Assembly: GCA_038062075.1 (NCBI GenBank)
Contig: JBBTXY010000003.1
Coordinates: forward strand, 17,589 to 81,588
Source: Patescibacteria group bacterium
GTDB taxonomy: Bacteria; Patescibacteriota; Minisyncoccia; Phycocordibacterales; UBA2100
Length of the DNA: 64,000 bases
Reading direction: 5' to 3'
A model generated the notes under the pieces. The model worked only from the letters and a program-made list of their open reading frames with translations. It ran no database searches and was not told the DNA's origin. Below are positions 31,392-55,658 of this stretch, piece by piece. Every line of letters starts with the position of its first letter. The first letter of the stretch is position 1. A program made the translations under genes and the position numbers.

Positions 31392-32717
31392 TTATACGGA
31401 ATGAGGAGTTTTTTCAAGTCGGTGCGCATGCGTGCGCCGGAAGAGAATAAGACCGAGAAATCCGATAAGAATAAAGAACGGGAGGTAGGGCGTATTGAAA
31501 CGCGGGACAACGTTGAAGAAGCTCAAGGTGATGATATTATAAAAAATGAAAAGGAGCGCGAGGATGCCGAGCGCTCGGACATCCCCCTTGCCTTTGGTGC
31601 GTATTAGCTGGTAGAGACCGAAGAGAAAGAATGAATAGATGAAGAGGTACTGCACCGGCCTGAAATAGCGGTTGAGGGTGTCGGAATAATCGTGCTCGAT
31701 GTAACCGAGTTTTACCATCTCCACCACATTGCCGTAGAGGTAGTGCCCGGGGCGGGAGAGTATCGTATGAATGTTCTTCGCCCTGATGCGCGCGACGGCT
31801 TCGCTCGTGGTCGCAAGCGTCTCGTATTCGTAGCCGAGCTTTTTGAATTCGTTGTCGGTCAGGAACTGCGTGTTCTCGCCGCCGGAGATACTGCGCCAGA
31901 GCCAGTCGCGGAGATACCTCGTGATCTCGCCGTAGGAGAGCTCGGCGCGGACGGCGCGATAGTACAGCATGTCATTCTGCCGGCCGCTCGTGACTGCAAA
32001 GACGCCGGTGTTTGCGTAGATGTAGGATGCAAATGAAAGGGGGATCACGGCGAATACTGCGAGTGCGATGATAGTGTTGCGCATGACCTGCCACGATAGT
32101 GGCCGGGCATATATGAGATAGAAGAAGGCAATGAAGAATGGGAAGAGAACGAATTGGAACCGCACCAGCGCTTCATAGCCGAAGGCGAGTCCGAGGAGCG
32201 CGTACCAATACCATGGCGCTGCCGCGGGAGAGCGCATGATACGCACACAGAGGAGAAGGATCACGCCGAGCATGAAGATGAACAGAGGCTCTGCACCGGT
32301 TTCGTTGGTGTGGTGGCCGAGTATCGGCTGTGATGCGATGCAGATGCCGGCCACAAGTGCGATCCATGTTTCTCCGTAATGTTTTAAAATGCGATAAATG
32401 ATGAATCCGAGAAGTCCGAGAAGGAGCGCCTGCGTGAACGATGCGGCGAGAAGGGCGAGGGGCGTTTCGATGCCGAAGATCTTGTAGAAGGGCAGAAGAT
32501 AGAACGACACGCCCGGCTCACGGTAGATGCTGAACGTGACACCGTCGAGGCTGTAGCCATTTCCGAGCGAAAGATTCTTTGCGTAGGCGCTGTAATCAGC
32601 CGCATCTTTCCAGCCAGGGTCATGGATGAGTCCGAAAACGAAGAAATTTGCGATTGCGAGCGCCATCAACAAGACAAGTATCCAAATGTCTTTTGAACGG
32701 GATGTCATGGTGAGCAT
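31392..32717 (-). CDS. GT-C fold membrane glycosyltransferase (ArnT/PMT, GT39/83-like)
   Basis: Multi-TMS; 'DPGWKDAADY' first-loop acidic motif. Start trimmed to ATG 32717 to avoid overlap with divergent gene. Confidence 0.55.
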   Translation of the reverse strand: MLTMTSRSKDIWILVLLMALAIANFFVFGLIHDPGWKDAADYSAYAKNLSLGNGYSLDGVTFSIYREPGVSFYLLPFYKIFGIETPLALLAASFTQALLLGLLGFIIYRILKHYGETWIALVAGICIASQPILGHHTNETGAEPLFIFMLGVILLLCVRIMRSPAAAPWYWYALLGLAFGYEALVRFQFVLFPFFIAFFYLIYARPLSWQVMRNTIIALAVFAVIPLSFASYIYANTGVFAVTSGRQNDMLYYRAVRAELSYGEITRYLRDWLWRSISGGENTQFLTDNEFKKLGYEYETLATTSEAVARIRAKNIHTILSRPGHYLYGNVVEMVKLGYIEHDYSDTLNRYFRPVQYLFIYSFFLFGLYQLIRTKGKGDVRALGILALLFIFYNIITLSFFNVVPRFNTPYLPFFILIGFLGLILFRRTHAHRLEKTPHSV

Positions 32718-32783
32718 TAAGTATACGGCACAAGGTCTGTGGATATCCCTCAAAGACGTCTTGTTCTGTTGTATCATCCTGAC

Positions 32784-33809
32784 ATGGGAAAAATCGCATC
32801 GAAACGAGACCTTATTGTTCTTGGTGTTTTGGGAACATTTGTTCTAGGAGTTTTTTACCTGACGCCGGTCGCATCCGGAGGGCCCAATAAGCAACTGGCC
32901 CCGAAGATTTCAAATATCGCTGTGACCTATATTACCCCGTACACGGCGATCATCACGTGGGATACGGACATGCCTACGACAGGAATGGCCCACTACGGGC
33001 TCAAGGCCGGTAGTATGGGCGCGGGCGCGGGCGGCTCGCCGGGTCCCGTCACGGCTCATGCTGCGACACTGGGCAATCTCTCTCCATCAATGAAATATTA
33101 TTTTTACGTTGATGCGAGCAATCCAGTGACCAATGGATTTTCAAAATCAAAGCCGTTCTCATTTACTACGCTTACGTCCGCTCCGCGAGACGTCACCCCT
33201 CCTCCGCCACCGACGGTTACTGGTAGTGCGGCTTCAGCTTCTCAAATCAACCTGACCTGGAGCGCGTCTGCTGATATCAGCGGTATTGCGGAATATCGTG
33301 TATTCCGTAACGGACGCGTGGTCGGGATTGTTAATGGAATTACGAGAAGCTACGTTGATACAGGTCTTGGCGATGGCGGTCTTCAGCCGTCAACCACGTA
33401 CAGCTATACAGTTAATGCCGCTGATGCGGCAGGCAACTGGTCAGTGCAATCATCTCCAGTCTCGATCACAACACTTGCAGGTCCCCCCGATATAATTACG
33501 CCCACGACTCCTGCAGGGCTTGCCGTCATCTCCACCACAGCATCTTCTGCTTCGCTTTCATGGTCTCCCGCAACCGACAATGTCGCAGTCAGAGGATACA
33601 AGGTGTATCGTGATGGAGCACAAGTCGCCACTCCGGGAGGGACAAGCCATACCGACTCTGGGCTCACCGCATCAACCGCGTATAATTATATGGTCGCGGC
33701 GTATGATGCGGCAGGCAATACGTCGGCCCAATCAGCACCAATAACTGCTACGACCCTTGTAGCTCCTCCAGCCACTACGACGTCGCCGACCGCCACCAGC
33801 ACTCCCTAG
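32784..33809 (+). CDS. Membrane-anchored protein with three fibronectin-III-like repeats, Thr/Pro-rich tail
   Basis: N-terminal TM; two ~90-aa internal repeats ('..LTWSASADISGIAEYRVFRNG..' / '..LSWSPATDNVAVRGYKVYRDG..'). Confidence 0.6.
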   Translation: MGKIASKRDLIVLGVLGTFVLGVFYLTPVASGGPNKQLAPKISNIAVTYITPYTAIITWDTDMPTTGMAHYGLKAGSMGAGAGGSPGPVTAHAATLGNLSPSMKYYFYVDASNPVTNGFSKSKPFSFTTLTSAPRDVTPPPPPTVTGSAASASQINLTWSASADISGIAEYRVFRNGRVVGIVNGITRSYVDTGLGDGGLQPSTTYSYTVNAADAAGNWSVQSSPVSITTLAGPPDIITPTTPAGLAVISTTASSASLSWSPATDNVAVRGYKVYRDGAQVATPGGTSHTDSGLTASTAYNYMVAAYDAAGNTSAQSAPITATTLVAPPATTTSPTATSTP

Positions 33810-33981: not shown

Positions 33982-35301
33982 TCACTTCGCGAACACAAGG
34001 AACTTGTAGCCGAGGAAGTTGCCAAGGATCGCGGTGAGAATCGTAAAGAGGAGCGCGATGTTGGCCCACAGGGTGGTTGATATCCCTGCAGGAGCTCCGA
34101 CGATGTTCACTAATACATGGATGATGCCGAGGTTCACCAGCGCGGTTGTTGAGGTGACGGCGAAGAAACGCATGTACTGCCGTGTGCGGTTCTGGGGCGG
34201 CGTGTGGTGGAACGTCCAAAACATATTCCAGAAGAACGACTGCGAAATGACGATGGCGAAGGTAATGAGCGCGAAGAACGTCACGATAAGACCCTCGGAA
34301 ACGCCGCTTATGAAGATCAACGAATTGAAGATCGCCATGTTGAGCGTGGTATTGAAAATGCCCACGATGCCATAGCGGCTGAATTCCGCGGCACTGTGCT
34401 TGTGCAGGGGGAGAAGCGCGAGCCCCATCGCGCCGCAGACGAGCCCGGCAGGCACGACAAGAAGCAAGAATGCGATCGTAAGGGATGTGGGAATGCCGCG
34501 CTCGGTAAGGATCGCGAATATACCGAGATTGTGCAGGATCGGGATGAGGAGGACCGCGACGGCGATGCCAAGCGTTGCGATAAAATACGCGTCGCGCCGC
34601 GAGAGGCTGGTGCGGGTGCGCATGTAGAGCGCAAAAAGAGCGAGCCCCATGCTCGGACCGTCGCGAAGGAGCCGGATTGAGGTCTGTGATTCGTTCACGA
34701 GGGTGACCGGTATGAATGCGATCGAATCGCCCCTGTGTTGTGCGAGGTAGAGCACGTCCACATCAAAGGTGTACCCATCCGTCTTAAGCTCGCGGAAAAT
34801 GATTCGTCCGATGTCGGCGCGCACCCCTTTAAACCCGCACTGCGTGTCAGCGACCGGTTCGAGAAGTATCGTGTTCGCAAGCAGGGAAAAAATGACACTT
34901 GAGAGCTGGCGTTCGGGGCGTCGCTTGGTCTCGAATCTCGAATCCGGAAGGTGCCGCGAGCCGCAGACGAGATCCGCGCCCTTTGAGAATTCTTTGAGCG
35001 CGGTATCGATCGCGCTGAAGTCATAGGGCAAGTCTATGTCCGTGAAGAACACATACTCGCCTTCTGCGGCAAGCACGCCGGCGCGCACGGCCGCTCCTTT
35101 GCCGCGGTTGGCTGGCAAGGTAATAACCCGTATCGGGGCAGGTACATCCCGTAAGATCGCCGGGGTGCCGTCGGTCGAGCCATCGTCGACGAGGATGATC
35201 TCGAGGACGTCAGAACGCGATCGGACCCAACGATCCAGGTGCGTGATGGTGGCGCGGAGCTTGCCTTCGAAGTTATAGACTGGGATGACGAGCGAGATCA
35301 T
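33982..35301 (-). CDS. Polyprenol-phosphate glycosyltransferase (GT2, DPM1/ArnC/GtrB-like) fused to C-terminal GtrA-like 4-TMS domain
   Basis: 'ISLVIPVYNFEG', 'VDDGSTDGT', 'DIDL' DxD; C-terminal hydrophobic GtrA-type domain. Confidence 0.7.
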   Translation of the reverse strand: MISLVIPVYNFEGKLRATITHLDRWVRSRSDVLEIILVDDGSTDGTPAILRDVPAPIRVITLPANRGKGAAVRAGVLAAEGEYVFFTDIDLPYDFSAIDTALKEFSKGADLVCGSRHLPDSRFETKRRPERQLSSVIFSLLANTILLEPVADTQCGFKGVRADIGRIIFRELKTDGYTFDVDVLYLAQHRGDSIAFIPVTLVNESQTSIRLLRDGPSMGLALFALYMRTRTSLSRRDAYFIATLGIAVAVLLIPILHNLGIFAILTERGIPTSLTIAFLLLVVPAGLVCGAMGLALLPLHKHSAAEFSRYGIVGIFNTTLNMAIFNSLIFISGVSEGLIVTFFALITFAIVISQSFFWNMFWTFHHTPPQNRTRQYMRFFAVTSTTALVNLGIIHVLVNIVGAPAGISTTLWANIALLFTILTAILGNFLGYKFLVFAK

Positions 35302-35335: not shown

Positions 35336-36793
35336 TTATTTGCGCTCCAACATGAGATACGCCGCTGCCATCCCGCTTTCGTGGTAGCCGCTGAAGAGCG
35401 CCTGCTTTTGTTCGTAGGCCTCGTGAGAGAGGAGGATTATGTCGGGGACGCCTTTTTCGATGAGGTGGAGCTGCTCCTCCCCATAGAGAATCGTCTCCGT
35501 CGGCTGCAGGTACTGGTAATACTTTGTGGTAGGGAGGAATATTACCGCTGCAGGGCTGTTGTAGATGAAAATACTCTTATTCTCCGGGAACGAAGAGAAG
35601 TATTCTATCATTTGGGCGGTACGCGTCGTGTTGTAATGTTCGGCGACCCACGATGCGTAGTTAAGCTGATAGAACTGCATGAGCGTAAGAGCGGCGACGA
35701 TAAAGATGACGCCGAACGTAGCATACGGCCGAAGATATGCGCGGCGCTGTCCTGCTGCTTCGGCAAGGACTTGCAGGGATTGCGGCATAAAGAGAAGCGC
35801 AAACACCATCGCTTGGAAAAGGTAGCGATACCATCCGGCGGTTCGTAAGTATGCGAAGAGAACCATAACGGCAAAGACGAACGCAGACTTCTCGACGAGC
35901 GATATCTGCCCTTTCTGGTAGAGCCGGATGAGAAGTCCAGCGGTCCACACGAGCATGAGCGCTGCGCAATAAAGCGGCGTCGTCTCCGTGAAGAATCCAA
36001 TGAGATTGTGCATCACGGTTTCCGGTATTGAGGCGACGCCGTAGGGATTCGCATAATAGGAAAGTATGAGGGAAGGGTCCACGTGTCCGAATTGGAGATA
36101 CATCCAGAGGGCAAGCGGTGCGATGAATGCGACGAGGGCCGCACCGATGTTCCTCACGTGCAGCGGGATGGACCGAACATGGAAGAGAAGGACGAGACCT
36201 ATCGCCGCCGGCATGAGGAGAAAGATGGGTTTTGTCGCGGCGACGAGACCTGTTGTAAGCCCAAGAAAGACGTAGTGCCAAATGCCCTCGAAGTTCCGCT
36301 CGCCGAGGCGATGGAGCGCGAGAAGCGCGAGCATCGAATAGAAAAGACCGGGGATCTCCCCGAGCACGTTCTTGCCGTTGCCATAGATGATGGGGAACGT
36401 CGCGAGGAGCGCGAGTCCGAGAAGAGCGTTACGCGATCCCGCGACGCGGACGAGAAGCACCCAGGCGGAAAGGGCAAACAGTATGATGAAAAGTACCATT
36501 GGGATGCGTGCTGCGAGAAGTGAGTTACCAAAGAGTTTGAGCGATGCCGCAACTGGTGCAATAAGCGGATAGCCGACCGTGAGGAAGTCAATCTGACGGA
36601 ACTCACCCGGTGCGACCTGGACGGTCTGCTCTCCGCGCTCACCGAACGACTGGGCGACCTGGATGTAGATACCCTCGTCATACCATGTCGGCGGGCTTTC
36701 GGTCAGGCGGTACGTCGCATAGAAGACGACGACTCCGAGGAGGCACGCGAGGATACCGACATACGCTTTCGAGGGGAGTGCCGAAGTGGGCAT
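35336..36793 (-). CDS. GT-C fold membrane glycosyltransferase (ArnT/PMT-like)
   Basis: 'TWYDEGIY' DE motif in first extracytoplasmic loop; ~12 TMS. Confidence 0.6.
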   Translation of the reverse strand: MPTSALPSKAYVGILACLLGVVVFYATYRLTESPPTWYDEGIYIQVAQSFGERGEQTVQVAPGEFRQIDFLTVGYPLIAPVAASLKLFGNSLLAARIPMVLFIILFALSAWVLLVRVAGSRNALLGLALLATFPIIYGNGKNVLGEIPGLFYSMLALLALHRLGERNFEGIWHYVFLGLTTGLVAATKPIFLLMPAAIGLVLLFHVRSIPLHVRNIGAALVAFIAPLALWMYLQFGHVDPSLILSYYANPYGVASIPETVMHNLIGFFTETTPLYCAALMLVWTAGLLIRLYQKGQISLVEKSAFVFAVMVLFAYLRTAGWYRYLFQAMVFALLFMPQSLQVLAEAAGQRRAYLRPYATFGVIFIVAALTLMQFYQLNYASWVAEHYNTTRTAQMIEYFSSFPENKSIFIYNSPAAVIFLPTTKYYQYLQPTETILYGEEQLHLIEKGVPDIILLSHEAYEQKQALFSGYHESGMAAAYLMLERK

Positions 36794-46781: not shown

Positions 46782-47492
46782 ATGGACACGGCGATCGAAG
46801 GGAAGCTCTCGAGCGTTTCTTTCTTTTGCCCTGCCTATCATGATGAGAAGAACTTGCCGGTTTTGATACCGCGCGTGCACGCATTTCTCTCCGAGATCGC
46901 GCACCGATTCGAGATCGTCATCGTCGAAGATGGGAGCCCTGACACAACGGGGGAGGCGGCTGACGCACTTGCCGCACGATACAAAGAAGTCCGCGTCATA
47001 CATCATCCGAAGAACCTCGGCTATGGAGGTGCTATCCGCGACGGGTTCCTCAACAGCCGTCTGGACTATGTCATGTATACCGACGGCGACAACCAATACG
47101 ACCCCCGCGAATTCGAGGCGGCACTCCCGCTTTTAAGAGAGGCAGATGTCGTGAGCGGGTATGTCCGCGAAAAGGCCGTGAGCGACCTCCGGAAACTGCA
47201 ATCCACTATCTTCAACCTTATGGTCGCCGTGTTGTTTTTTGTCTGGATCCGGGACATCAACTGCTCGATGAAGATATACAAGCGGAAAGTGCTTGATGCG
47301 ATCGAGATAAAAAGCATGAGCGCTTTTATCGATGCGGAAATGCTGGTGTGCGCGCGCCGTGCGGGGTTTCGCATCGCACAATTCCCGGTCACGCACTTTC
47401 GCCGGACCGAGGGCCTTCCGAGCGGATCGAAACTTGCCGTCATCGTCCCCACCATTATGGATATGCTGAAATTTAGATTCGGGCTATTATAA
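46782..47492 (+). CDS. Polyprenol-phosphate glycosyltransferase (GT2, DPM1-like)
   Basis: 'VSFFCPAYHDEKNL', 'VEDGSPDTT', 'TDGD' DxD. Confidence 0.7.
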   Translation: MDTAIEGKLSSVSFFCPAYHDEKNLPVLIPRVHAFLSEIAHRFEIVIVEDGSPDTTGEAADALAARYKEVRVIHHPKNLGYGGAIRDGFLNSRLDYVMYTDGDNQYDPREFEAALPLLREADVVSGYVREKAVSDLRKLQSTIFNLMVAVLFFVWIRDINCSMKIYKRKVLDAIEIKSMSAFIDAEMLVCARRAGFRIAQFPVTHFRRTEGLPSGSKLAVIVPTIMDMLKFRFGLL

Positions 47493-49820: not shown

Positions 49821-51026
49821 ATGCCATTTCGTGTGACGGGTATGCACTGTCGCCTGTGCCGTCATGAGAACACGCTTGAGTTCCTGGATCTGGGGAAACA
49901 GCCTCTCGCCAACAAATATCCGAAAAAAGAGGAGTTTGAGACCGAGGATTTCTTTCCCGTAAAGGTCTTTTTCTGTCCAGAGTGCAAGAGCGTGCAGCTC
50001 GGAACACAGGTCTCGCGCGAGAGGATGTTTGAAGACTACTTTTATCTTTCGTCGGTGAATACGGGACTCGTGAAGCAGTATGAAGTATTTGCGAAGACTC
50101 TTGCGGATTCGAGATTTGTTGTCGACATAGGCTCGAATGACGGCATATTATTGAAACCTCTGAAAGAGATGGGGGTCAAAGCCGTCGGCGTCGAACCCTC
50201 CATCAATGTGTCAAAGATAGCGAACGATGCGGGCCTCACCACGATCACCTCATTCTTCGATGCGAGAGCGGCCGCACAGGTAGAGAAAGAGTACGGAAAG
50301 CCCGATGTGATCACAGGCTTCAGCATGTTCTCGCACCTGGGGGACCCGCATGATTTTATCGAAGATGTGAAAAATCTCCTGATGGACGACGGCAGATTCA
50401 TCCTGGAGATCGAATATGTCGATACCATGCTGAAGAACATGTCCTTCGAACGATTTTACTTGGATAGGATCTCCTACTATTCCGTAACCTCGCTTGAGAA
50501 CTTGTTCCAGCAGCACGGCATGTACCTCTCCGACGTGGAGGAGACGGATTCTCATGGGGGGTCATTGCGCGCAACGGTGCAAAAGAAAGGAAAGGGTCAG
50601 GTGCCAACGGAGCGCGTCGCGCGTCATATCACGTATGAGGCGAAGAAGCTGACAGCAGAGAGCCTGACCGAATTCGGGAATGAGGCCATGGCGCAGATAG
50701 CAGCGCTTCGCGGAAAATTAGAGGAATTCAAAGCTGCCGGACTGAAGGTTGCTGGCTTCGGTGCGCCGGCACGCGTCTCCACATTATGCAATTTCGGCCG
50801 TATCGGCCCCGAACTCATTGCATGTATCGTGGACGAGACCCCGCTAAAGCAAAATCGACACAGCCCCGGGACACACATTCCCATCGTGCCGATGTCGCAT
50901 CTGGAAAAGTACCGACCAGACATCTTTGTCGTTTTTGTACATGAATACTTCGACGTCGTGAAGAAAAAGTTATCTGGGGCATCATATCGCTACCTGTTCC
51001 CGATACCGCCAAAAGAAGTACACTAA
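49821..51026 (+). CDS. Zinc-ribbon C-methyltransferase family, copy 2
   Basis: 'CRLCRH...CPEC', 'VVDIGSNDG'; collinear with 38839-40197. Confidence 0.65.
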   Translation: MPFRVTGMHCRLCRHENTLEFLDLGKQPLANKYPKKEEFETEDFFPVKVFFCPECKSVQLGTQVSRERMFEDYFYLSSVNTGLVKQYEVFAKTLADSRFVVDIGSNDGILLKPLKEMGVKAVGVEPSINVSKIANDAGLTTITSFFDARAAAQVEKEYGKPDVITGFSMFSHLGDPHDFIEDVKNLLMDDGRFILEIEYVDTMLKNMSFERFYLDRISYYSVTSLENLFQQHGMYLSDVEETDSHGGSLRATVQKKGKGQVPTERVARHITYEAKKLTAESLTEFGNEAMAQIAALRGKLEEFKAAGLKVAGFGAPARVSTLCNFGRIGPELIACIVDETPLKQNRHSPGTHIPIVPMSHLEKYRPDIFVVFVHEYFDVVKKKLSGASYRYLFPIPPKEVH

Positions 51027-51031
51027 TCAAC

Positions 51032-51958
51032 ATGACACGCCTTGCACTCTTCGGGCACGGACGGTGGGGGAAAGCTATTCTCCGGACGCTCGAGGGGTTC
51101 CCCGAAGTGTCGGTTACTGTCGTGGGCCGCGGCGAAACGCCAGGAGCGAACGTTGATGGCGCCATTATCGCAACGCCTGTCTCGACGCACGCCGAACTCG
51201 CGCTCCCGCTTATCGAGCGCGGAGTTCCCCTACTCATAGAAAAACCTCTGACGGCTTCCGTTGAGGAAGCGAACCGTCTCGAGGCTGCTGCCGAAAAGGC
51301 AGACACGCTTGTGCAGGTCGGGCATATTCATCTGCATAATCCGGCATTTATGAAAGTACAAGAACTGCTGCCAACACTAGGCCGCATCCGATATCTCTCA
51401 TTTGAGGGGATGAATAACGGGCCGGCGCGCAATGACGCATCGGTTTTATGGGACTGGCTTCCGCATCCCTTGTCGATGACGTTACGTCTTGTGGAGGCCG
51501 CGCCTCTATCGGTGCAGGCGTGGGGAATAAACTGTTTACGCCCCGACACGCAGGCGCTGTACGACATTGGCATCGTGAGATATGTATTTGAAGGAGGTGC
51601 GTCCTTGCTATGTTCGGTGAATTGGCTCTCGCCCGAGAAGCGCACCAAAATGACAATCGTCGGCGAAACGAGCTCGTTGGTTCACACCGATACGGATGCG
51701 CAGAAACTCGTGCTCTACGAAGGGATGGGCCCGGCTGTTGACGGGATGCAGGTGACGCACCAGGCTCCGTCCGTCTCGTATCCTGCCTATGGGGGTGGCT
51801 GGCCGCTGGAGCACGAACTGCACGCGTTTATTGACGCTCTGCAGAAAGGGTCTCGTGACCGATCAGAGTTGGCATTCGGTGCTCGGATCGTGCGATTGAT
51901 CGCCGCCGCGCACACATCGATCGAAACGGAAGGCCGAGCGGTGACCCTCAATATATAA
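51032..51958 (+). CDS. Gfo/Idh/MocA-family oxidoreductase (cassette copy 2)
   Basis: 'LALFGHGRWG', 'EKP'. Confidence 0.65.
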   Translation: MTRLALFGHGRWGKAILRTLEGFPEVSVTVVGRGETPGANVDGAIIATPVSTHAELALPLIERGVPLLIEKPLTASVEEANRLEAAAEKADTLVQVGHIHLHNPAFMKVQELLPTLGRIRYLSFEGMNNGPARNDASVLWDWLPHPLSMTLRLVEAAPLSVQAWGINCLRPDTQALYDIGIVRYVFEGGASLLCSVNWLSPEKRTKMTIVGETSSLVHTDTDAQKLVLYEGMGPAVDGMQVTHQAPSVSYPAYGGGWPLEHELHAFIDALQKGSRDRSELAFGARIVRLIAAAHTSIETEGRAVTLNI

Positions 51959-51966: not shown

Positions 51967-53406
51967 ATGTCTTCCGGTATCACACGTAAGAAGTTTGTTA
52001 TACTCGGCGCGGGGCCTGCTGGCATGGGGGCTGCGTGGGAACTCCATACAAAGGGCGCGAAAGACATCACGGTCGTCGATCGCAACGACCGTGTCGGCGG
52101 TCTCGCACGCACGTTTACGTTCAAAGGCTATCGTTTCGATGTTGGGCCACACCGATTTCTGACGAAATATCCGGAAGTCGAAGTTCTGTGGAAGCAGCTC
52201 TTAGGCGACGACCTCTTGACCCGTCCGCGACTCACGCGCATTTATTATCGCGGACGTTTTTTTCTATATCCTCTCAAGATGGTGAACGCACTCTGGAATC
52301 TCGGATTTTGGCAGAGCATCCTCGCGGGCTTGAGTTTCCTGAAGGCGCAGATACTGTGGCGTGGGAAGGAGCCGAAGAATTTCGCCGAGTGGACCACGAA
52401 GACCTTCGGCAACCGGATGTCCCAGGCGTTTTTCCGGGACTATTTCAGGAAGGTGTGGGGGATAGGCGCGCACGAGGTCGGGATAGAGTGGGCCGGCCAG
52501 CGCATCAAAGGGATACGTATTCGTGATTTTTTTGGCAATAAGCTGAAAGAATTCGTCTGGCAGCAGAGGTCCGAGAATATCGGCAATCAGTTCTTGTATC
52601 CACGCCACGGTGCAGGGCAATTCTACGAAGCGATGAAACAGGAACTCGAGAGGGCCGGCGTGCATTTCAACCTCGGGCACGAGGTAGTCGCGGTGTGCCA
52701 CGAGGGCGAACATATCACTACGGTTGAAACCGAAGGACCGAATGGCGCGCACGAAATCTTCTCGGGCGACGTGTTCATATCGAGCATACCGGCGAATTTC
52801 CTCGTACAGTCACTCACGCCGGCAGTTTCTGCGAACGTGCTGGCTCTGACGGATACGATGCGTTTCCGTGCGCATATCGCGGTCAATATGATAATCAAAC
52901 GGAAGGATCTCTTTGCTGATTCGTGGTTCTATATCCAATCGTCCGAATTCCGCATCGCTCGCATCGGGAATTACGGCGCATTTAGCCCGGACATGTTGGG
53001 ACGGCCCGACACCTCCGCAATAGGGGTCGAATTCTTTTGCCACGCGGGCGATACGTTCTGGAAACAGAGCGACGAGGATATTATCGCACGTGCGGTAGAT
53101 GAATTGGTCCAGCTCGGGTTTATTGCGCGGGAAGAATTCGACGGCGCGTTCGTCGTCAGACATGCAGATGCATACCCGATGTATTACTTAGGGTATCGTG
53201 AGGAGTTCGCGCGCTTGCGGACGTATCTGGAAGGCTTTGAGAACTTACGGCTCACCGGCCGTGCGGGGATGTATAAGTACAAAGACCAAGATCACGCGCT
53301 CTATACGGGGATCCTGACGGTTCGGAACCTCTTCGGAGAGCATAACGACGTATGGGAGCTCGGAGAAGAAAAGGAATTTTTTGAAGAGAAAACAGTTTCT
53401 AAATGA
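51967..53406 (+). CDS. FAD-dependent oxidoreductase, copy 2
   Basis: 'KFVILGAGPAGMGAA...VVDRNDRVGG'; paralogue of 41246-42685. Confidence 0.65.
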   Translation: MSSGITRKKFVILGAGPAGMGAAWELHTKGAKDITVVDRNDRVGGLARTFTFKGYRFDVGPHRFLTKYPEVEVLWKQLLGDDLLTRPRLTRIYYRGRFFLYPLKMVNALWNLGFWQSILAGLSFLKAQILWRGKEPKNFAEWTTKTFGNRMSQAFFRDYFRKVWGIGAHEVGIEWAGQRIKGIRIRDFFGNKLKEFVWQQRSENIGNQFLYPRHGAGQFYEAMKQELERAGVHFNLGHEVVAVCHEGEHITTVETEGPNGAHEIFSGDVFISSIPANFLVQSLTPAVSANVLALTDTMRFRAHIAVNMIIKRKDLFADSWFYIQSSEFRIARIGNYGAFSPDMLGRPDTSAIGVEFFCHAGDTFWKQSDEDIIARAVDELVQLGFIAREEFDGAFVVRHADAYPMYYLGYREEFARLRTYLEGFENLRLTGRAGMYKYKDQDHALYTGILTVRNLFGEHNDVWELGEEKEFFEEKTVSK

Positions 53407-55658
53407 TGCCAAGTCCTTCCCGTGCTACAATCCTCTCCATGTTCGAAAAGGCATTGCGCACCATAGTCCTTGCGGGAGTGTTCGCGCTCCCGTTTCTCGT
53501 CCTCTACGTCTCGACGTCGCTCTTCTTTCCCTTCATTACGGGCAAGAATTTTGCCTTTCGCATCATCATCGAGATCATTGCCGGTGCATGGTTTTCTCTT
53601 GCACTAGTCAAGACCGAGTACCGGCCGCGGCGCTCGTGGCTTTTGTGGGCCTTCGCGGCCTTCGTACTTCTGATCGGTATTTCTGATATCTTCGGCGTCT
53701 ATCCGGAGAAGAGTTTTTGGAGCAACTATGAGCGCATGGAAGGGTGGGTGACGCTTGCGCATCTCTTTGTATATTTCGTCGTCGCGGTTTCGGTCCTCAA
53801 CACCGAGCGTCTCTGGAAGTACTGGTGGCACACGACACTTGGCGTCTCCGTCATCGTCGCTTGCATTGGTCTTTTCCAACTTGCGGGATGGGTCCCCATT
53901 AATCAAGGGGGAGCCCGCGTCGATGCGCGCATTGGGAACGCCACCTACCTCGGCGTCTACATGCTGTTCCATGTGTTCATGGCGGCGCTCTTTCTCGCAC
54001 GAGCGTGGGTTGAGCGGGCAAATGAGCGTACTCTGTACGTATCGCTCTATGGGGGAATCATTCTCCTCAATTCATTCGTTCTCTTTTTCACCGCGACGCG
54101 CGGCGCGATCTTAGGGCTCCTTGGCGGATTCCTCTTGAGTGGTCTCATTCTCATCCTACTTGCACCGCGCTCCCGCGTCGCATGGCGAGTTGGGAGCGTT
54201 ATTGCGGCGTTCATCATTCTTACAGGGGCGTTCTGGGCTGTGCGCGATCAGGCGTGGGTCCATCGGATAGAGCCCTTGCACCGCCTCGCGACCATTCTCT
54301 CCGACGGCACGACATTCTCGCGCTTCCTAAACTGGGGGATGGCCCTGCAAGGCTTCAAAGAGCGACCGATACTCGGCTGGGGTCAAGAGAATTATGCGGC
54401 GGTCTTCGACAAATACTACAACCCTGCCATGTACGCGCAGGAGCAGTGGTTCGACCGCACCCATAACATCATCTTTGATTGGCTCATCGCGGGCGGTATC
54501 CTCGGGCTTCTCGCATATTTCTCACTCTATCTTTTCGCACTCATCACTCTGTGGCGAAGCGGTCCGCCTGCGCGCGACGGATCGGGCGCGCGGTCAGGCG
54601 CATTCGCGCTGTATGAGCGCGCGATCCTCACCGGGCTCTTCGCAGGCTACTTCTTCTACCTCCTGTTCACCTTCGACAACATCACGAGCTACCTGCTCTT
54701 TATTTCGCTCTTGGCGTACATCGCGGCGCGCGCGACGGCGGGCGCGTCACCTCCGGTGCGCCCACCGATAACGCCGCTCTCACTCACGAGCTTGCCGATT
54801 GTAGTGGCAGTTATGCTTGTGGGAACGGGCGGGCTCGTGTGGTACGTGAATGCTGATGCGCTCGCCGCGAATCGGGCGCTCATCCAGGGACTTATGCCGT
54901 ATGCCGAAGGAGCATCGAAGAACCTTGCGTTTTTCGAGCAAGCGCTTGAGCGTGGGCATGGGAAGCAGGAAATACGCGAACAGTTCGCGCAGGCGGCGAT
55001 GAGCGTGATTGGTGCTCCCGGAGTGCCCAACGACTTGAAACAGCGTTTTGTACAGCGTGCGGCCGAGGAACTGGTGAAGCAGGCGAATGATGCGCCGCAA
55101 CACGCACGTGGCGCATTCTTTCTCGGCATCCTTCTTGATCGCGCCGGCGCATATGCGGACGCGAAACTGGCGCTTGAGCAAGCGCACGAGCGCTCACCAC
55201 AGAAACAAGGCGTTCTCTTCGAGTTTGGGTTGAATGCGTTCGCGCGCGGTGCAAACGACGAAGCACTTCAGTACTTTAAGTCGGCGTATGAAAGTGCGCC
55301 GCAGTATGCGGAAGCGTTTGCGTACTACGGTGCCGCGCTGATCCAAACGGGGCATGAGAAAGAAGCGGAGGAGCTTCTCGCGCCGTTGATAGGTACACGC
55401 ACTGCGGCGCATCAGCGCATCGCTGCCGCATATGCCGCTCGCGGGAAGTTCGATGCGATTATTGCTATCTGGAGTCCCTACATAGAGAAAAATCCTACCG
55501 ATTTCGACTCACGGCTTGTTATCGTCAGCGCATACTATTCCAAAGGAGACCGCGCGCGAGCGCTGCAGGAGCTTGAGCGTATGCGGCAGGAAATCCCCGG
55601 CGCAGCTGCGCAGATCGATGAACTGATCCGTCAGGCACAGAGCGGGGCGATACAGTAG
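53403..55658 (+). CDS. O-antigen ligase/polymerase-family (Wzy_C) membrane protein with C-terminal TPR domain
   Basis: 'FFTATRGAILGLLGG' Wzy_C motif; ~10 TMS; C-terminal ~250 aa of TPR-like Ala-rich repeats. Confidence 0.6.
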   Translation: MMPSPSRATILSMFEKALRTIVLAGVFALPFLVLYVSTSLFFPFITGKNFAFRIIIEIIAGAWFSLALVKTEYRPRRSWLLWAFAAFVLLIGISDIFGVYPEKSFWSNYERMEGWVTLAHLFVYFVVAVSVLNTERLWKYWWHTTLGVSVIVACIGLFQLAGWVPINQGGARVDARIGNATYLGVYMLFHVFMAALFLARAWVERANERTLYVSLYGGIILLNSFVLFFTATRGAILGLLGGFLLSGLILILLAPRSRVAWRVGSVIAAFIILTGAFWAVRDQAWVHRIEPLHRLATILSDGTTFSRFLNWGMALQGFKERPILGWGQENYAAVFDKYYNPAMYAQEQWFDRTHNIIFDWLIAGGILGLLAYFSLYLFALITLWRSGPPARDGSGARSGAFALYERAILTGLFAGYFFYLLFTFDNITSYLLFISLLAYIAARATAGASPPVRPPITPLSLTSLPIVVAVMLVGTGGLVWYVNADALAANRALIQGLMPYAEGASKNLAFFEQALERGHGKQEIREQFAQAAMSVIGAPGVPNDLKQRFVQRAAEELVKQANDAPQHARGAFFLGILLDRAGAYADAKLALEQAHERSPQKQGVLFEFGLNAFARGANDEALQYFKSAYESAPQYAEAFAYYGAALIQTGHEKEAEELLAPLIGTRTAAHQRIAAAYAARGKFDAIIAIWSPYIEKNPTDFDSRLVIVSAYYSKGDRARALQELERMRQEIPGAAAQIDELIRQAQSGAIQ

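What the first reader, a model, noticed from the sequence alone, without database searches (positions are those of the whole stretch)
31392..55658. Unusual concentration of GT-C transferases and polyprenol-phosphate sugar synthases
Four ArnT/PMT-like GT-C proteins (31392-32717, 35336-36793, 42691-44079, 48395-49693) and an O-antigen-ligase/TPR protein lie within 24 kb. Two DPM1/ArnC-like GT2s (one fused to GtrA) and a Wzx flippase accompany them. This implies extensive extracytoplasmic glycosylation of a lipid or protein acceptor (S-layer, pili, lipoglycan) from several different lipid-linked donors.
Basis: partly seen in the sequence, partly recalled or inferred. Interest (0 to 1): 0.5.

Follow-up and report, generated by a model that had tools for sequence, protein, structure and literature searches.

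The report
Membrane glycosylation locus of a Kaiserbacteria
An ultra-small groundwater bacterium (Candidatus Kaiserbacteria, candidate phyla radiation) carries a conserved gene block with four membrane-embedded sugar transferases, two lipid-sugar donor synthases and rare-sugar enzymes; it most likely decorates the cell surface from outside the membrane, as known systems do, but here the block is conservedly tied to a furanose-forming enzyme.

Summary
All four ORFs are compact GT-C glycosyltransferases. Three pass Pfam PMT_2. The fourth has no Pfam hit but is a paralog of the third, and its model matches only GT-C structures. The Wzy_C-TPR protein and both ArnC/DPMS-like GT2s (one fused to a GtrA domain) are real. 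The Wzx gene lies 4 kb outside the stated span.

The window comes from a Patescibacteria MAG whose closest relatives are Candidatus Kaiserbacteria. The region is the membrane half of a surface-glycan island of at least 65 kb. Its gene order recurs in related genomes, and all four GT-C orthogroups co-occur in three other loci. So the concentration is a lineage trait, not an accident.

A 14-gene operon mixes an RmlA/RmlB/RmlD-like 6-deoxyhexose pathway with two cassettes of C-methyltransferase, Gfo oxidoreductase and an "amine oxidase". That "amine oxidase" is really a eukaryote-type UDP-galactopyranose-mutase homolog. The mutase gene sits directly upstream of the GT-C gene in 13 of 17 related loci.

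Most likely mechanism (inferred): tailored NDP-sugars are loaded onto polyprenyl phosphate, flipped, and transferred outside by the GT-Cs. The acceptor is unknown. This is a new variant of multi-component transmembrane glycosylation, of moderate interest.

The parts
26266..27549 (-).
   Evidence: Pfam PF01943, 46.1 bits against cutoff 28.2. About 12 hydrophobic segments. Its ortholog in L047 (617 bits) sits next to the UGM-like/GT-C/SDR/Wzy_C-TPR genes.
28341..29438 (+). ManC-like sugar-1-phosphate nucleotidyltransferase
   Evidence: Pfam NTP_transferase plus ManC_GMP_beta-helix.
29445..30401 (+). SDR NDP-sugar epimerase/dehydratase
   Evidence: Pfam Epimerase, 172 bits.
30420..31382 (-). SDR NDP-sugar epimerase/reductase, 9 bp downstream of GTC1 on the same strand
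   Evidence: Pfam Epimerase, 148 bits. Gap measured.
31392..32717 (-). GTC1, compact GT-C glycosyltransferase (441 aa)
   Evidence: PMT_2, 29 bits against cutoff 26.1. hhalign to the GTC3/4 family gives 98.1% probability, E 7e-14. Loop-1 motif KD38AAD41Y. Orthologs in L005, L048 and L049.
32784..33809 (+). Membrane-anchored protein with three FN3 domains, Pro/Thr/Ser-rich linkers and a Pro/Thr/Ser-rich C-terminal tail; candidate acceptor or glycan-binding protein
   Evidence: Pfam fn3, three stretches. The sequence shows an N-terminal TM anchor and 33% S+T+P content. It holds the same position only in the closest relatives L004 and L046.
33982..35301 (-). Polyprenyl-phosphate sugar synthase-like GT2 fused to a GtrA/DPMS transmembrane domain (architecture like Pyrococcus DPMS)
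   Evidence: Pfam Glycos_transf_2 98 bits plus GtrA_DPMS_TM 56.8 bits. Best PDB hits are DPMS 5mlz at 6e-11, then ArnC and GtrB. Motifs DDGSTDG and TDID are visible in the sequence.
35336..36793 (-). GTC2, GT-C glycosyltransferase (485 aa), 34 bp upstream of the GT2-GtrA gene on the same strand
   Evidence: PMT_2, 39.1 bits. Loop-1 motif YD39E40G and later TKP. The pairing with GT2-GtrA is conserved in L004, L015, L046 and L048.
36827..37726 (+). FkbM-family methyltransferase
   Evidence: Pfam Methyltransf_21, 87 bits. NCBIfam fkbM_fam, 111 bits.
37736..38800 (-). SDR NDP-sugar dehydratase/epimerase
   Evidence: Pfam Epimerase, 129 bits. The opposite-strand ORF 37730-38824 has no Pfam hit and is a shadow ORF.
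38899..40197 (+). CMT1, NDP-hexose C-methyltransferase-type enzyme (zinc-binding domain, SAM domain, C-terminal domain); first gene of the 14-gene operon
   Evidence: Pfam Methyltransf_13 and Methyltransf_14. Start position per public gene call.
40201..41226 (+). GFO1, Gfo/Idh/MocA NAD(P) sugar oxidoreductase
   Evidence: Pfam GFO_IDH_MocA plus its C-terminal domain.
41246..42685 (+). UGM-like 1 (labelled AO1): FAD enzyme of the eukaryote-type UDP-galactopyranose mutase fold
   Evidence: AlphaFold model pLDDT 86.3. The top 34 Foldseek hits are all eukaryotic UGM, best E 1.5e-34, TM 0.80. UGM active-site residues are conserved. It lies directly upstream of GTC3 homologs in 13 of 17 loci.
42691..44079 (+). 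GTC3, compact GT-C glycosyltransferase (462 aa)
   Evidence: PMT_2, 39 bits. Family-invariant D81 and D158, with nearly invariant D53 and the K198/P199 pair. Family size is 24 clusters at E<=1e-30 and 1082 at E<=1e-10.
44058..44954 (+). Inositol-monophosphatase-family phosphatase, overlapping the GTC3 stop by 22 bp; role unknown
   Evidence: Pfam Inositol_P, 190 bits. Same position in L004 and L046.
45005..46060 (+). RmlB-like NDP-glucose 4,6-dehydratase
   Evidence: Best NCBIfam hit is dTDP-glucose 4,6-dehydratase at 261 bits, below the equivalog cutoff of 365.
46066..46776 (+). RmlA-like glucose-1-phosphate nucleotidyltransferase
   Evidence: NCBIfam rmlA at 234 bits, the best hit but below the cutoff of 361.
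46782..47492 (+). Small soluble GT2, ArnC/DPMS/PpgS-like polyprenyl-phosphate sugar synthase (236 aa)
   Evidence: Best PDB hits are ArnC 9bhc at 3.2e-16 and DPMS 5mlz at 6.5e-13. Best NCBIfam hit is ArnC at 70 bits. A homolog follows the UGM-like/GT-C pair in most related loci.
47499..48398 (+). RmlD-like NDP-4-keto-6-deoxyhexose reductase
   Evidence: Pfam RmlD_sub_bind, 185 bits. NCBIfam rmlD at 184 bits, below the cutoff of 224. Homologs precede the UGM-like gene in 26 of 35 loci, about three quarters, in other phyla.
48395..49693 (+). GTC4, compact GT-C glycosyltransferase (432 aa) with no Pfam hit
   Evidence: Paralog of GTC3, E 2e-20. AlphaFold model matches GT-C structures. Loop-1 AD48AY and YPD77A, then SD153V and TRP.
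49821..51026 (+). CMT2, second C-methyltransferase-type enzyme (34% identical to CMT1)
   Evidence: Pfam Methyltransf_13 and Methyltransf_14. Paralogy shown.
51032..51958 (+). GFO2, second Gfo/Idh/MocA oxidoreductase
   Evidence: Pfam. Best NCBIfam hit is UDP-GlcNAc 3-dehydrogenase at 86 bits, far below its cutoff.
51967..53406 (+). UGM-like 2 (labelled AO2), second eukaryote-type UGM homolog (26% identical to AO1)
   Evidence: NCBIfam NF005548 at 483 bits, above the cutoff of 389. Best PDB hits are T. cruzi UGM at 6.8e-23 and A. fumigatus UGM.
53403..55658 (+). Wzy_C (O-antigen ligase / polymerase / O-oligosaccharyltransferase family) membrane protein with C-terminal TPR domain; last gene of the operon
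   Evidence: Pfam Wzy_C 67.8 bits plus TPR_19. About 12 hydrophobic segments. Orthologs in L004, L047, L049, L056 and L057.

Best explanation
The span is the membrane-glycosylation end of a native cell-surface glycan island of at least 65 kb. The host is a Patescibacteria (candidate phyla radiation) bacterium whose closest relatives are Candidatus Kaiserbacteria. The proposed mechanism has five steps.

1. Cytoplasmic enzymes make and tailor nucleotide sugars. This includes an RmlA/RmlB/RmlD-like 6-deoxyhexose route. Two cassettes of C-methyltransferase, Gfo oxidoreductase and UGM-like flavoenzyme probably yield C-methylated and/or furanose forms.
2. The two ArnC/DPMS-like GT2 enzymes transfer single sugars from these nucleotide donors to polyprenyl phosphate.
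3. The lipid-linked monosaccharides are flipped. The GtrA-type domain fused to one GT2 is the candidate flippase.
4. The four compact GT-C enzymes, each a conserved orthogroup, transfer those sugars on the outer face of the membrane to distinct positions. The acceptor is most likely a surface glycan whose backbone is built by the upstream Leloir glycosyltransferases and exported by Wzx.
5. The Wzy_C-TPR protein polymerises that glycan or ligates it to its final carrier.

Shown: the gene content, the fold and family assignments, the operon structure and the conserved synteny. Inferred: every substrate, the membrane orientation, the flipping step and the acceptor.
For: GT-C identity of all four ORFs:
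- Pfam, hhalign, paralogy and fold evidence.
- Acidic first loop with conserved Asp.

Donor synthases:
- Both GT2s are closest to the solved polyprenyl-phosphate sugar synthases ArnC, DPMS and GtrB.
- One carries a GtrA_DPMS_TM domain.

Operon and pathway:
- 14 co-directional genes at 38899-55658, with gaps of 127 bp or less and three overlaps.
- RmlA-, RmlB- and RmlD-like genes sit inside the operon.
- The "amine oxidases" are UGM homologs by sequence (E 7e-23), by active-site residues and by fold (TM 0.80).

Conserved synteny:
- Identical order in L004 and L046.
- The UGM-like gene is directly upstream of the GTC3 homolog in 13 of 17 loci, down to 40% identity. It is usually followed by an SDR and a small GT2.
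- All four GT-C orthogroups co-occur in L005, L048 and L049.

Context:
- Wzx and Wzy_C-TPR co-occur with the unit (L047).
- The upstream 10 kb holds at least 4 GT4 and 3 GT2 Leloir enzymes.
- GC content is uniform with the flanking SecA and GatB genes.

Characterised precedents:
- Three-component GT-C glycosylation (PMC11127046; PMC8035078 abstract).
- The pathway nucleotidyltransferase, 4,6-dehydratase, C4-reductase, FADH2 mutase that yields CDP-6-deoxyhexofuranoses (PMC12369002).
Against: - No biochemical data exist for any of these proteins or their close homologs.
- Only two donor synthases serve four GT-Cs. No flippase is evident for the second synthase.
- No initiating phosphoglycosyl transferase (Bac_transf or MraY/WecA type) was found in the roughly 72 kb examined. 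The Wzx/Wzy_C branch is therefore incomplete as seen.
- The RmlA/B/D-like proteins score below NCBIfam equivalog cutoffs, so the nucleotide and the sugar are uncertain.
- No polyprenyl-phosphate sugar synthase is known to me to use a dTDP- or furanose donor.
- GTC2 is not detectably related to the other three beyond the shared Pfam family.
- Foldseek E-values for GTC4 are modest (4e-4 and weaker).
Confidence: 0.7

Rival explanations
1. Direct protein O-glycosylation. The GT-Cs act like actinobacterial or eukaryotic PMTs, or like the pilin arabinosyltransferase TfpW. They would transfer single sugars from polyprenyl-phosphate donors onto Ser/Thr of surface proteins (S-layer protein, pilins, or the FN3 protein encoded inside the locus) rather than onto a glycan.
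For: - The only Pfam family hit is PMT_2.
- A membrane-anchored protein with three FN3 domains, Pro/Thr/Ser-rich linkers and a Pro/Thr/Ser-rich tail is encoded between GTC1 and GT2-GtrA. It holds the same place in L004 and L046.
- A 45%-identical (43% by BLASTP) GTC3 homolog lies next to a type IV pilus operon in L006.
- The Wzy_C family also includes protein O-oligosaccharyltransferases (my own knowledge). The TPR domain suggests protein binding.
Against: - The proteins lack the MIR and PMT_4TMC domains of true PMTs. PF02366 is not hit by the window proteins.
- The FN3 gene is conserved only in the closest relatives, while the GT-C set is conserved much further.
- The co-located Wzx, Wzy_C and block of Leloir glycosyltransferases point to a polymer substrate.
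- Four distinct conserved GT-Cs are more than a single protein-mannosylation step needs.
Confidence: 0.2
2. Mycobacterium-like de novo assembly. The GT-Cs act in series to polymerise and branch a lipoglycan or wall polysaccharide entirely outside the membrane from one or two lipid-linked donors. This would resemble PimE/Mpt/Emb/Aft with polyprenyl-phosphomannose and decaprenyl-phospho-arabinose.
For: - There are more GT-Cs (4) than donor synthases (2).
- A furanose-forming enzyme is conservedly linked to a GT-C.
- PimE and EmbB are among the structural matches of GTC4.
- The compact size (430-485 aa) resembles PimE.
Against: - There is no UbiA-type phosphoribosyltransferase and no DprE1/DprE2 homolog.
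- There is no C-terminal carbohydrate-binding domain as in Emb/Aft.
- Emb hits are weak (E 0.7-3).
- A Wzx, a Wzy_C and many Leloir glycosyltransferases are present and would make a conventional backbone.
Confidence: 0.1
3. ArnT-like lipid modification. The GT-Cs glycosylate a membrane lipid (lipid A or another glycolipid) to alter surface charge.
For: ArnT is among the best structural matches of GTC4 (5ezm, E 1.2e-3). ArnC is the best solved relative of the small GT2.
Against: - NCBIfam ArnT and ArnC equivalog models are not met. ArnC scores 70 bits against a cutoff of 529, and no GT-C hit is returned.
- There are no ArnA/B/D-type genes in the window.
- Candidate phyla radiation bacteria are generally regarded as lacking an outer membrane and LPS (my own knowledge, not tested here).
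Confidence: 0.03
4. The membrane ORFs are transporters or unrelated membrane proteins, and the clustering is an accident of paralog-rich small genomes.
For: GTC4 has no Pfam hit. GTC1 only just passes the PMT_2 cutoff. If the genome held 20-30 GT-C genes, four in 18 kb would not be statistically striking.
Against: - In the fold search, transporters appear only at probability 0.08 or less, the first at rank 30.
- The conserved loop-1 Asp motifs are present.
- Profile-profile comparison links GTC1 to GTC3/4.
- Gene order and all four orthogroups are conserved across genomes at 40-70% identity.
Confidence: 0.02

Closest known systems
Three-component (multi-component transmembrane) glycosylation systems: GtrA/GtrB/Gtr* of Shigella and Salmonella O antigens; CsbB/GtcA/YfhO and relatives for teichoic acids and rhamnose-rich wall polysaccharides in Gram-positives
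   Same: All three parts are present: a GT2 polyprenyl-phosphate sugar synthase, a GtrA-family membrane module and a GT-C transferase. The GT2-GtrA and GTC2 genes are adjacent. The likely role is post-export decoration of a glycan (PMC11127046; PMC8035078 abstract).
   Different: - Four conserved GT-Cs rather than one per system.
- GtrA is fused to the synthase, as in archaeal DPMS.
- The GT-Cs are compact (430-485 aa) and not members of named Gtr or YfhO families.
- The system is embedded in an operon with sugar-tailoring enzymes.
- The host is a candidate phyla radiation bacterium.
Pentofuranose three-component systems (polyprenyl-phosphoribose synthase, MATE flippase, GT136 GT-C; Kelly et al. 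2024, PMC11127046) and the P. aeruginosa TfpW pilin arabinofuranosylation system
   Same: A furanose-generating step is genetically tied to a GT-C that would act outside the membrane. Auxiliary oxidoreductases diversify the sugar. Some GTC3 homologs carry long C-terminal extensions that recall the carbohydrate-binding module of the GT136 founder.
   Different: - There is no PRPP-dependent UbiA-type synthase, no MATE flippase and no DprE1/E2-type epimerase.
- The furanose would instead arise at the nucleotide-sugar level, by a UGM-type mutase. It would be a hexofuranose or 6-deoxyhexofuranose loaded by a GT2.
- This route is not described in that paper.
Mycobacterial PPM/DPA-dependent GT-C network (PimE, MptA-C, EmbA-C, AftA-D) with the Rv3789 (GtrA) - DprE1 - DprE2 - AftA gene neighbourhood
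   Same: Several GT-Cs share few lipid-linked donors. A flavoenzyme and an NAD(P) oxidoreductase are encoded next to a GT-C. PimE and Emb are structural matches.
   Different: - The flavoenzyme is UGM-type, not DprE1-type.
- There is no DPPR synthase.
- The GT-Cs lack the Emb/Aft C-terminal domains.
- Wzx and Wzy_C machinery is present.
ArnC/ArnT (undecaprenyl-phosphate-Ara4FN synthase and lipid A Ara4N transferase)
   Same: ArnC is the best solved sequence relative of the small GT2. ArnT is among the best fold matches of GTC4. The two-step logic of lipid donor followed by GT-C is the same.
   Different: Equivalog thresholds are not met. There are no ArnA/B/D/E/F genes. No lipid A is expected in this lineage.
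Pyrococcus furiosus dolichyl-phosphate mannose synthase (PDB 5mlz)
   Same: 33982-35301 has the same architecture, a GT2 catalytic domain plus a C-terminal GtrA_DPMS_TM four-helix module. 5mlz is its best PDB hit.
   Different: The similarity is low (E 6e-11). The sugar specificity is unknown. The protein is bacterial.
NDP-6-deoxyhexofuranose pathways: C. jejuni HS:41 HS41.17-21 (PMC12369002); E. coli O52 Fcf1/Fcf2 (dTDP-D-fucofuranose; my own knowledge)
   Same: The enzyme logic is the same: sugar-1-P nucleotidyltransferase, 4,6-dehydratase, C4 reductase and a reduced-flavin pyranose/furanose mutase.
   Different: - The mutases here are of the long eukaryote-type UGM fold (about 480 aa). By phmmer they match eukaryotic UGMs at about 1e-19 to 7e-23, against about 1e-7 for bacterial Glf-type UGMs. 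The type of the C. jejuni and E. coli mutases was not checked here.
- The operon adds C-methyltransferases and Gfo oxidoreductases.
- The products appear to feed GT-Cs rather than only Leloir glycosyltransferases.
S-layer protein O-glycosylation clusters of Gram-positive bacteria (Geobacillus/Paenibacillus slg loci with the Wzy_C-type O-oligosaccharyltransferase WsaB/WsfB; my own knowledge)
   Same: rml genes, heptose and rare-sugar pathways, a flippase and a Wzy_C-family membrane protein occur in one locus of a probable monoderm.
   Different: Those loci, as far as I recall, have no GT-C enzymes. No S-layer gene was identified here.

Membership tests
GT-C fold glycosyltransferase superfamily | Polytopic membrane protein with 8-13 TM helices | tested here: met
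   Hydropathy gives 6-8 hydrophobic stretches per protein, equivalent to roughly 8-12 TM helices. The AlphaFold model of GTC4 is all-helical, with about 12 long helices.
GT-C fold glycosyltransferase superfamily | Conserved acidic motif (DxD, DE or similar) in the first extracytoplasmic loop | tested here: met
   GTC1 has KD38AAD41Y. GTC2 has YD39E40G. GTC3 has ND53 and EPD81A. GTC4 has AD48AY and YPD77A. D81 and D158 are invariant across 23 GTC3/4 family sequences, and D53 is nearly invariant. The outside orientation is inferred only from the short N-terminal tails, which carry 0-2 Lys/Arg.
GT-C fold glycosyltransferase superfamily | Structural similarity to solved GT-C enzymes | tested here: met
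   Tested for GTC4 only. Nearly all of the top 33 PDB matches (28 of the top 29) are GT-C-fold proteins, with probability 1.00 for the best hits, TM 0.3-0.5 and E 4e-4 to about 1. GTC1-3 rest on Pfam PMT_2 above its cutoff.
GT-C fold glycosyltransferase superfamily | Uses a polyprenyl-phosphate-linked sugar donor | not testable with these tools
   Supported only by co-location with two polyprenyl-phosphate sugar synthase-like GT2 genes.
Three-component Gtr-type glycosylation system | GtrB-like GT2 synthase, GtrA-family module and GT-C encoded together | tested here: met
   33982-35301 (GT2 plus GtrA_DPMS_TM) is adjacent to GTC2 at 35336-36793, with a 34 bp gap on the same strand. The pairing is conserved in L004, L015, L046 and L048.
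Three-component Gtr-type glycosylation system | Acts on an already exported glycan (post-polymerisation modification) | not testable with these tools
   Inferred from co-located Wzx, Wzy_C and upstream Leloir glycosyltransferases.
ArnT (GT83) / ArnC lipid A modification | Meets the NCBIfam equivalog for ArnC/ArnT, with arnABDEF genes nearby | tested here: not met
   ArnC model scores 70.5 bits against a cutoff of 529. No NCBIfam hit for GTC1-3, and only a weak unrelated hit for GTC4. No arnA/B/D-type genes in the window.
Protein O-mannosyltransferase (PMT, GT39) | PMT (PF02366) N-terminal domain, MIR domains and PMT_4TMC | tested here: not met
   Only PMT_2 (PF13231) is hit. There are no MIR or PMT_4TMC domains, and the proteins are 432-485 aa against about 700-800 aa for PMTs.
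Mycobacterial Emb/Aft arabinofuranosyltransferases and the DPA pathway | C-terminal carbohydrate-binding domain; UbiA-type DPPR synthase; DprE1/DprE2 | tested here: not met
   None of these domains appears in any ORF scanned. Emb structures match GTC4 only weakly, at E 0.7-3.
Polyprenyl-phosphate sugar synthases (DPMS/GtrB/ArnC-type GT2) | GT-A catalytic domain with a DxD motif, closest to known members of this group rather than to processive or Leloir GT2s | tested here: met
   Best PDB relatives are ArnC, DPMS and GtrB for both proteins. Motifs DDGSTDG and TDID, and EDGSPD and TDGD, are visible in the sequences. NCBIfam equivalog cutoffs are not reached, so the specific sugar is unknown.
UDP-galactopyranose mutase (eukaryote-type, flavin-dependent pyranose/furanose mutase) | UGM fold | tested here: met
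   For the AO1 model, the top 34 PDB matches are all A. fumigatus or T. cruzi UGM, with E down to 1.5e-34 and TM 0.77-0.82. For AO2, phmmer gives E 6.8e-23 to 4dsg.
UDP-galactopyranose mutase (eukaryote-type, flavin-dependent pyranose/furanose mutase) | Histidine loop, the two active-site Arg, and the Tyr/Arg that bind the diphosphate (A. fumigatus H63, R182, R327, Y419, R447, Y453) | tested here: met
   The equivalents H62, R182, R339, Y409, R437 and Y443 are invariant in 19 sequences including AO1 and AO2. They were placed against UGM with the phmmer alignment. The A. fumigatus residue numbers are from my own knowledge.
UDP-galactopyranose mutase (eukaryote-type, flavin-dependent pyranose/furanose mutase) | Substrate is UDP-galactopyranose | tested here: inconclusive
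   Some sugar or base contacts appear changed. The position of A. fumigatus N457 is Asp in both proteins, and N163 is Thr or Phe. The conserved partner gene is an RmlD-like reductase rather than GalE. This points to a 6-deoxyhexose rather than galactose.
Wzx/Wzy-dependent glycan assembly | Wzx flippase, a Wzy or Wzy_C-family membrane protein, and an initiating phosphoglycosyl transferase | tested here: inconclusive
   Wzx-like and Wzy_C-TPR proteins are present. No Bac_transf or Glycos_transf_4 initiating enzyme was found in the roughly 72 kb examined. It may lie elsewhere in the genome.

The most novel reading that the evidence does not exclude
The conserved unit of UGM-like mutase, compact GT-C, SDR and small GT2 may define an undescribed route. 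In it, a hexofuranose or 6-deoxyhexofuranose, possibly C-methyl-branched, is made at the nucleotide-sugar level by a eukaryote-type UGM homolog. It is then loaded onto polyprenyl phosphate and added to surface glycans or proteins outside the membrane by a dedicated GT-C. This would be the hexofuranose counterpart of the PRPP-based pentofuranose three-component systems and of mycobacterial DPA/Emb-Aft chemistry.

A variant reading is that the flavoenzyme acts on the lipid-linked sugar itself.

The RmlD-like/UGM-like gene pair is spread across many bacterial phyla and DPANN archaea at 48-75% identity. PMT_2 genes are over-represented near it: 8 of 72 large neighbours. So the route could be widespread rather than specific to the candidate phyla radiation.
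Probability: 0.3. Interest if true: 0.7.

Novelty: new variant of a known kind. Interest (0 to 1): 0.5.

Why it matters
Candidate phyla radiation bacteria have tiny genomes and live attached to other cells. Their surface chemistry is almost unknown and cannot yet be studied in pure culture.

Here the organism spends at least 65 kb on one glycan island. That is probably more than 5% of the genome, if the genome is about 1 Mb as is typical for this group, which I did not verify. Four orthologous GT-Cs are kept across related species. This argues that extracytoplasmic glycosylation with rare sugars (6-deoxy, C-methyl, furanose, heptose) is central to their biology. Likely roles are host attachment, phage evasion or envelope stability.

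The work also gives two testable enzyme predictions:
- A very conserved eukaryote-type UGM homolog paired with an RmlD-like reductase, found in many phyla and in archaea.
- A compact GT-C family that may use hexofuranosyl-phosphopolyprenol donors.

If confirmed, these would extend the recently defined pentofuranose three-component concept to hexofuranoses.

Tried and rejected
- **Sequence search of GTC2 and GTC3 against PDB.** No meaningful hit. Fold comparison was needed instead.
- **NCBIfam on the four GT-Cs.** No family. The only hit was an 18.8-bit match of GTC4 to AZOBR_p60025, against a cutoff of 150.
- **hhalign of GTC2 against the GTC3/4 family.** Not significant. GTC2 therefore stands on Pfam alone.
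- **"Amine oxidase" reading of 41246-42685 and 51967-53406.** Rejected in favour of UGM-like mutase.
- **A DprE1/DprE2-like lipid-sugar epimerase reading of the flavoenzyme plus oxidoreductase pair.** Not favoured, because the UGM diphosphate-binding residues are conserved. It is not excluded.
- **The idea that the island has no Leloir glycosyltransferases at all.** Rejected. GT2 and GT4 genes lie at 1593-4319 and in the 10 kb upstream of the window.
- **ORF 37730-38824(+).** No Pfam hit. It mirrors the SDR gene on the other strand, so it is a shadow ORF.
- **Look-up of 3024-4319 with the GTG start.** Failed because the called start differs.
- **Literature searches.** Searches for Patescibacteria, Kaiserbacteria or Parcubacteria together with GT-C, glycosylation or mannosyltransferase found nothing relevant.
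- **PDB search with the Wzy_C-TPR protein.** Returned only TPR proteins.
- **FN3 protein as a conserved acceptor.** It is present only in the closest relatives, so it is a lead rather than evidence.
- **Chance estimate.** Inconclusive without the genome-wide GT-C count.

Full report
**Origin and setting**

- The exact GTC3 protein is on record on NCBI contig CAYIIW010000001.1 (GCA_964363605.1, 109 kb). It is also on a Hainich groundwater 0.1 um-filter assembly.
- NCBI labels it "MAG: Patescibacteria group bacterium". The nearest homolog is 71% identical and comes from Candidatus Kaiserbacteria RIFCSPLOWO2_01_FULL_53_17.
- GC content is even, 0.51-0.58, across the region and the flanking housekeeping genes SecA (56256-58799) and GatB (58954-60405). 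The locus therefore looks native rather than recently acquired.

**Checking the observation**

A Pfam scan of all long ORFs gave the following.
- PMT_2 above its gathering score for 31392-32777(-) (29 bits), 35336-36793(-) (39 bits) and 42691-44079(+) (39 bits).
- No family for 48395-49693(+).
- Wzy_C plus TPR for 53403-55658.
- GT2 plus GtrA_DPMS_TM for 33982-35301(-), and GT2 for 46665-47492.

The ORF without a Pfam hit (GTC4) was tested three ways.
- It is a clear paralog of GTC3: 29% identity over 284 aa, 82.8 bits.
- An AlphaFold model built on the family alignment has pLDDT 77.8 and pTM 0.81.
- Nearly all of its top 33 PDB matches (28 of the top 29) are GT-C-fold proteins: STT3, ArnT, PIG-M, ALG3/9/12, Pmt1/2/4, PimE, Emb and DPY19. 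Transporters appear only at probability 0.08 or less, the first at rank 30. The E-values are modest (4e-4 and weaker), so this is fold-level evidence, not family-level.

Relations among the four:
- GTC1 is linked to the GTC3/4 family by hhalign (98.1%, E 7e-14).
- GTC2 is not linked and stands on Pfam alone.

All four share the same N-terminal layout. There is a short N-terminal tail, then TM1, then a 36-50 residue acidic loop carrying a conserved Asp motif.
- GTC1: KD38AAD41Y.
- GTC2: YD39E40G.
- GTC3: ND53 and EPD81A.
- GTC4: AD48AY and YPD77A.

**The donor synthases**

- Both GT2 proteins find polyprenyl-phosphate sugar synthases as their best solved relatives.
  - The 236-aa protein matches ArnC at E 3e-16 and Pyrococcus DPMS at 6.5e-13.
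  - The fusion protein matches DPMS at 6e-11.
  - GtrB also appears for both.
- NCBIfam gives the same picture (ArnC, dolichyl-phosphate hexose transferase, PpgS), but far below equivalog cutoffs. The class is supported and the sugar is unknown.
- The fusion protein has the domain architecture of archaeal DPMS.

*1. The span is one end of a much larger island.*
- Window positions 1.6-30 kb hold GT2, GT4 and deacetylase genes.
- They also hold a heptose-type set (GHMP kinase, transaldolase, SIS isomerase, HAD phosphatases) and a UDP-sugar dehydrogenase.
- There are several SDR and Gfo enzymes, several (about six) nucleotidyltransferase-type genes and four inositol-monophosphatase-family genes.
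- The 10 kb upstream of the window add at least four GT4 and three GT2 genes.
- The island is thus at least 65 kb.

*2. Genes 38899-55658 form one tightly packed co-directional block of 14 genes* (gaps of 127 bp or less, three overlaps). The order is: CMT1, GFO1, AO1, GTC3, IMPase, RmlB-like, RmlA-like, small GT2, RmlD-like, GTC4, CMT2, GFO2, AO2, Wzy_C-TPR.
- The trio of C-methyltransferase, Gfo and AO occurs twice as old paralogs (34%, 22% and 26% identity).

*3. The "amine oxidases" are homologs of eukaryote-type UDP-galactopyranose mutase.*
- AO2 matches T. cruzi and A. fumigatus UGM at E 7e-23 to 1e-19.
- The AO1 model (pLDDT 86.3) has UGM as its top 34 structural matches (E 1.5e-34, TM 0.80). 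Protoporphyrinogen oxidase follows six orders of magnitude behind.
- The UGM histidine loop, both catalytic arginines and the diphosphate-binding Tyr/Arg/Tyr are invariant in the family.

*4. The pathway logic has a characterised precedent.*
- The RmlA/RmlB/RmlD-like genes, together with a flavin mutase, match the characterised C. jejuni route. [quoted passage not shown]
- The 4-keto-6-deoxyhexose intermediate is also the classical substrate type of Methyltransf_13/14 C-methyltransferases (my own knowledge).
- No RmlC-type epimerase was seen.

**Conservation**

- L004 and L046 (Kaiserbacteria-like) repeat the window's order gene for gene, from GT2-GtrA to AO2.
- In 17 informative loci holding a GTC3 homolog, the UGM-like gene is immediately upstream on the same strand in 13. 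This holds down to 40% GT-C identity. An SDR and a small GT2 usually follow.
- All four GT-C orthogroups co-occur in L005, L048 and L049.
- L047 shows a compact version: Wzx, one further gene, UGM-like, GT-C, SDR, Wzy_C-TPR.
- The close GTC3 orthogroup is small: 24 clusters at E<=1e-30 among 1.84 billion representatives. The wider compact GT-C family has more than 1000 clusters at E<=1e-10.

The AO1 family behaves differently.
- It is 48-84% identical across several hundred proteins (332 with E <= 1e-10).
- It occurs in Chitinophagaceae, Polyangiaceae, Gemmatimonadota, Spirochaetes, Gammaproteobacteria, Marinimicrobia, Saccharibacteria, Peregrinibacteria and DPANN Woesearchaeota.
- In those genomes it is preceded by an RmlD-like SDR in 26 of 35 loci, about three quarters.
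- Among 72 large neighbours within four genes of it, PMT_2 is the second most frequent kind (8 members) after GT4 (10 members).
- The mutase-reductase pair is therefore a widespread sugar-making module. GT-Cs are frequent consumers nearby, most tightly so in the Kaiserbacteria lineage.

**Mechanism**

*Shown:* gene content, families, folds, operon structure and synteny.

*Inferred:*
- Tailored NDP-sugars are loaded by the two GT2s onto polyprenyl phosphate.
- The lipid-linked sugars are flipped, with the GtrA-type domain as the candidate flippase.
- The four GT-Cs transfer them outside the membrane.
- The Wzx and Wzy_C-TPR pair, with the upstream Leloir enzymes, makes and places the backbone glycan.

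*Acceptor:* open. Candidates are a wall or surface polysaccharide (favoured), surface proteins, or a lipoglycan.
- The locus-encoded membrane-anchored FN3 protein, with Pro/Thr/Ser-rich linkers and tail, is a lead for a protein acceptor. It is conserved only in the nearest relatives.
- One distant GTC3 homolog sits beside type IV pilus genes.

*Weak points:*
- Two synthases serve four GT-Cs.
- No initiating phosphoglycosyl transferase was found.
- Rml-like scores are sub-threshold.
- There is no known precedent for a GT2 loading a furanose or dTDP-sugar onto a polyprenol.

**Comparison with known systems**

- The locus works like multi-component transmembrane glycosylation systems: Gtr; CsbB/GtcA/YfhO; ArnC/ArnT; and the pentofuranose GT136 systems of PMC11127046.
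- With several GT-Cs per donor, it is also reminiscent of the mycobacterial PPM/DPA network.
- It is not a member of the ArnT, PMT or Emb/Aft families. The equivalog models, MIR and PMT_4TMC domains, UbiA-type synthase, DprE1/E2 and C-terminal carbohydrate-binding domains are all absent.
- The distinctive feature is the conserved coupling of a eukaryote-type UGM homolog, plus C-methyltransferase and Gfo cassettes, to compact GT-Cs in a candidate phyla radiation genome.
- No literature on GT-C or glycosylation in these lineages was found.

**Verdict**

- The locus is a new variant of a known kind.
- Interest is moderate (0.5). The general mechanism is expected. The specialist value lies in three things: the size and conservation of the island in a minimal genome, the four conserved GT-C orthogroups, and the UGM-to-GT-C link.
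- The most novel reading not excluded is a hexofuranosyl-phosphopolyprenol/GT-C pathway. I give it a probability of about 0.3.

Noticed in passing
window 9606-10730(+), 12352-13227(-), 18566-19552(-), 44058-44954(+): There are four inositol-monophosphatase-family paralogs in one glycan island. Two sit next to nucleotidyltransferase-like genes (10739-11458). One overlaps the stop of GTC3 and keeps that position in relatives. Their role in sugar activation, perhaps as sugar-bisphosphate phosphatases, is unexplained.
   Followed up: partly
window 14311-17294: A heptose-type gene set is present: GHMP kinase (14311-15303), transaldolase (15306-16040), SIS isomerase (15997-16710) and HAD phosphatase (16686-17294). 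It resembles the GDP-glycero-manno-heptose pathway of S-layer and capsule glycans.
   Followed up: no
L010 1-10000 (contig positions 19289-29288, upstream of the window) and window 1593-4319: There is a block of at least 4-5 GT4 and 3-4 GT2 Leloir glycosyltransferases, two polysaccharide deacetylases and methyltransferases. It extends the island to at least 65 kb. No initiating phosphoglycosyl transferase was seen.
   Followed up: partly
L013-L043 (AO1 homolog loci): A very conserved gene pair of RmlD-like SDR and eukaryote-type UGM homolog (48-75% identity to AO1) occurs across many bacterial phyla and in Woesearchaeota. This suggests horizontal spread of a two-gene sugar module of unknown product. 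Radical SAM/B12-binding proteins are also near it, 4 among the 72 large neighbours scanned.
   Followed up: partly
L006 13552-21320: A GTC3 homolog (P0026; 45% identity by phmmer, 43% by BLASTP) lies just upstream of a type IV pilus operon (PilM, PilB, PilT, PilC, prepilin). This hints at pilin glycosylation in that organism.
   Followed up: no
P0157, P0158, P0160; L057 9977-12418: Some GTC3 homologs are 813-1183 aa long, with a long C-terminal extension. This could be a carbohydrate-binding module like that of the GT136 founder enzyme.
   Followed up: no
L004 14917-15216: A 99-aa GIY-YIG endonuclease gene is inserted between the small GT2 and RmlD-like genes in the Kaiserbacteria relative. 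It is absent from the window.
   Followed up: no
window 27640-28140; L005 5101-5631: An NYN-domain (RNase-like) gene sits inside the glycan locus, both in the window and in a 52%-identity relative.
   Followed up: no
window 60000-63000: GC content drops to 0.47. An IS200/Y1-transposase-like ORF (61135-61815) and an HTH_17 protein (61931-62929) lie downstream of GatB. This is probably a small mobile element.
   Followed up: no
window 6026-8631: A 531-aa protein has only an N-terminal MobA-like nucleotidyltransferase domain. It is followed by a weak GatZ/KbaZ-like (tagatose-bisphosphate aldolase subunit) protein. This may be an unusual sugar-activation pair.
   Followed up: no
window 37730-38824(+): A 364-aa ORF lies exactly opposite the SDR gene 37736-38800(-). 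It has no Pfam hit and is a shadow ORF, not a gene.
   Followed up: yes
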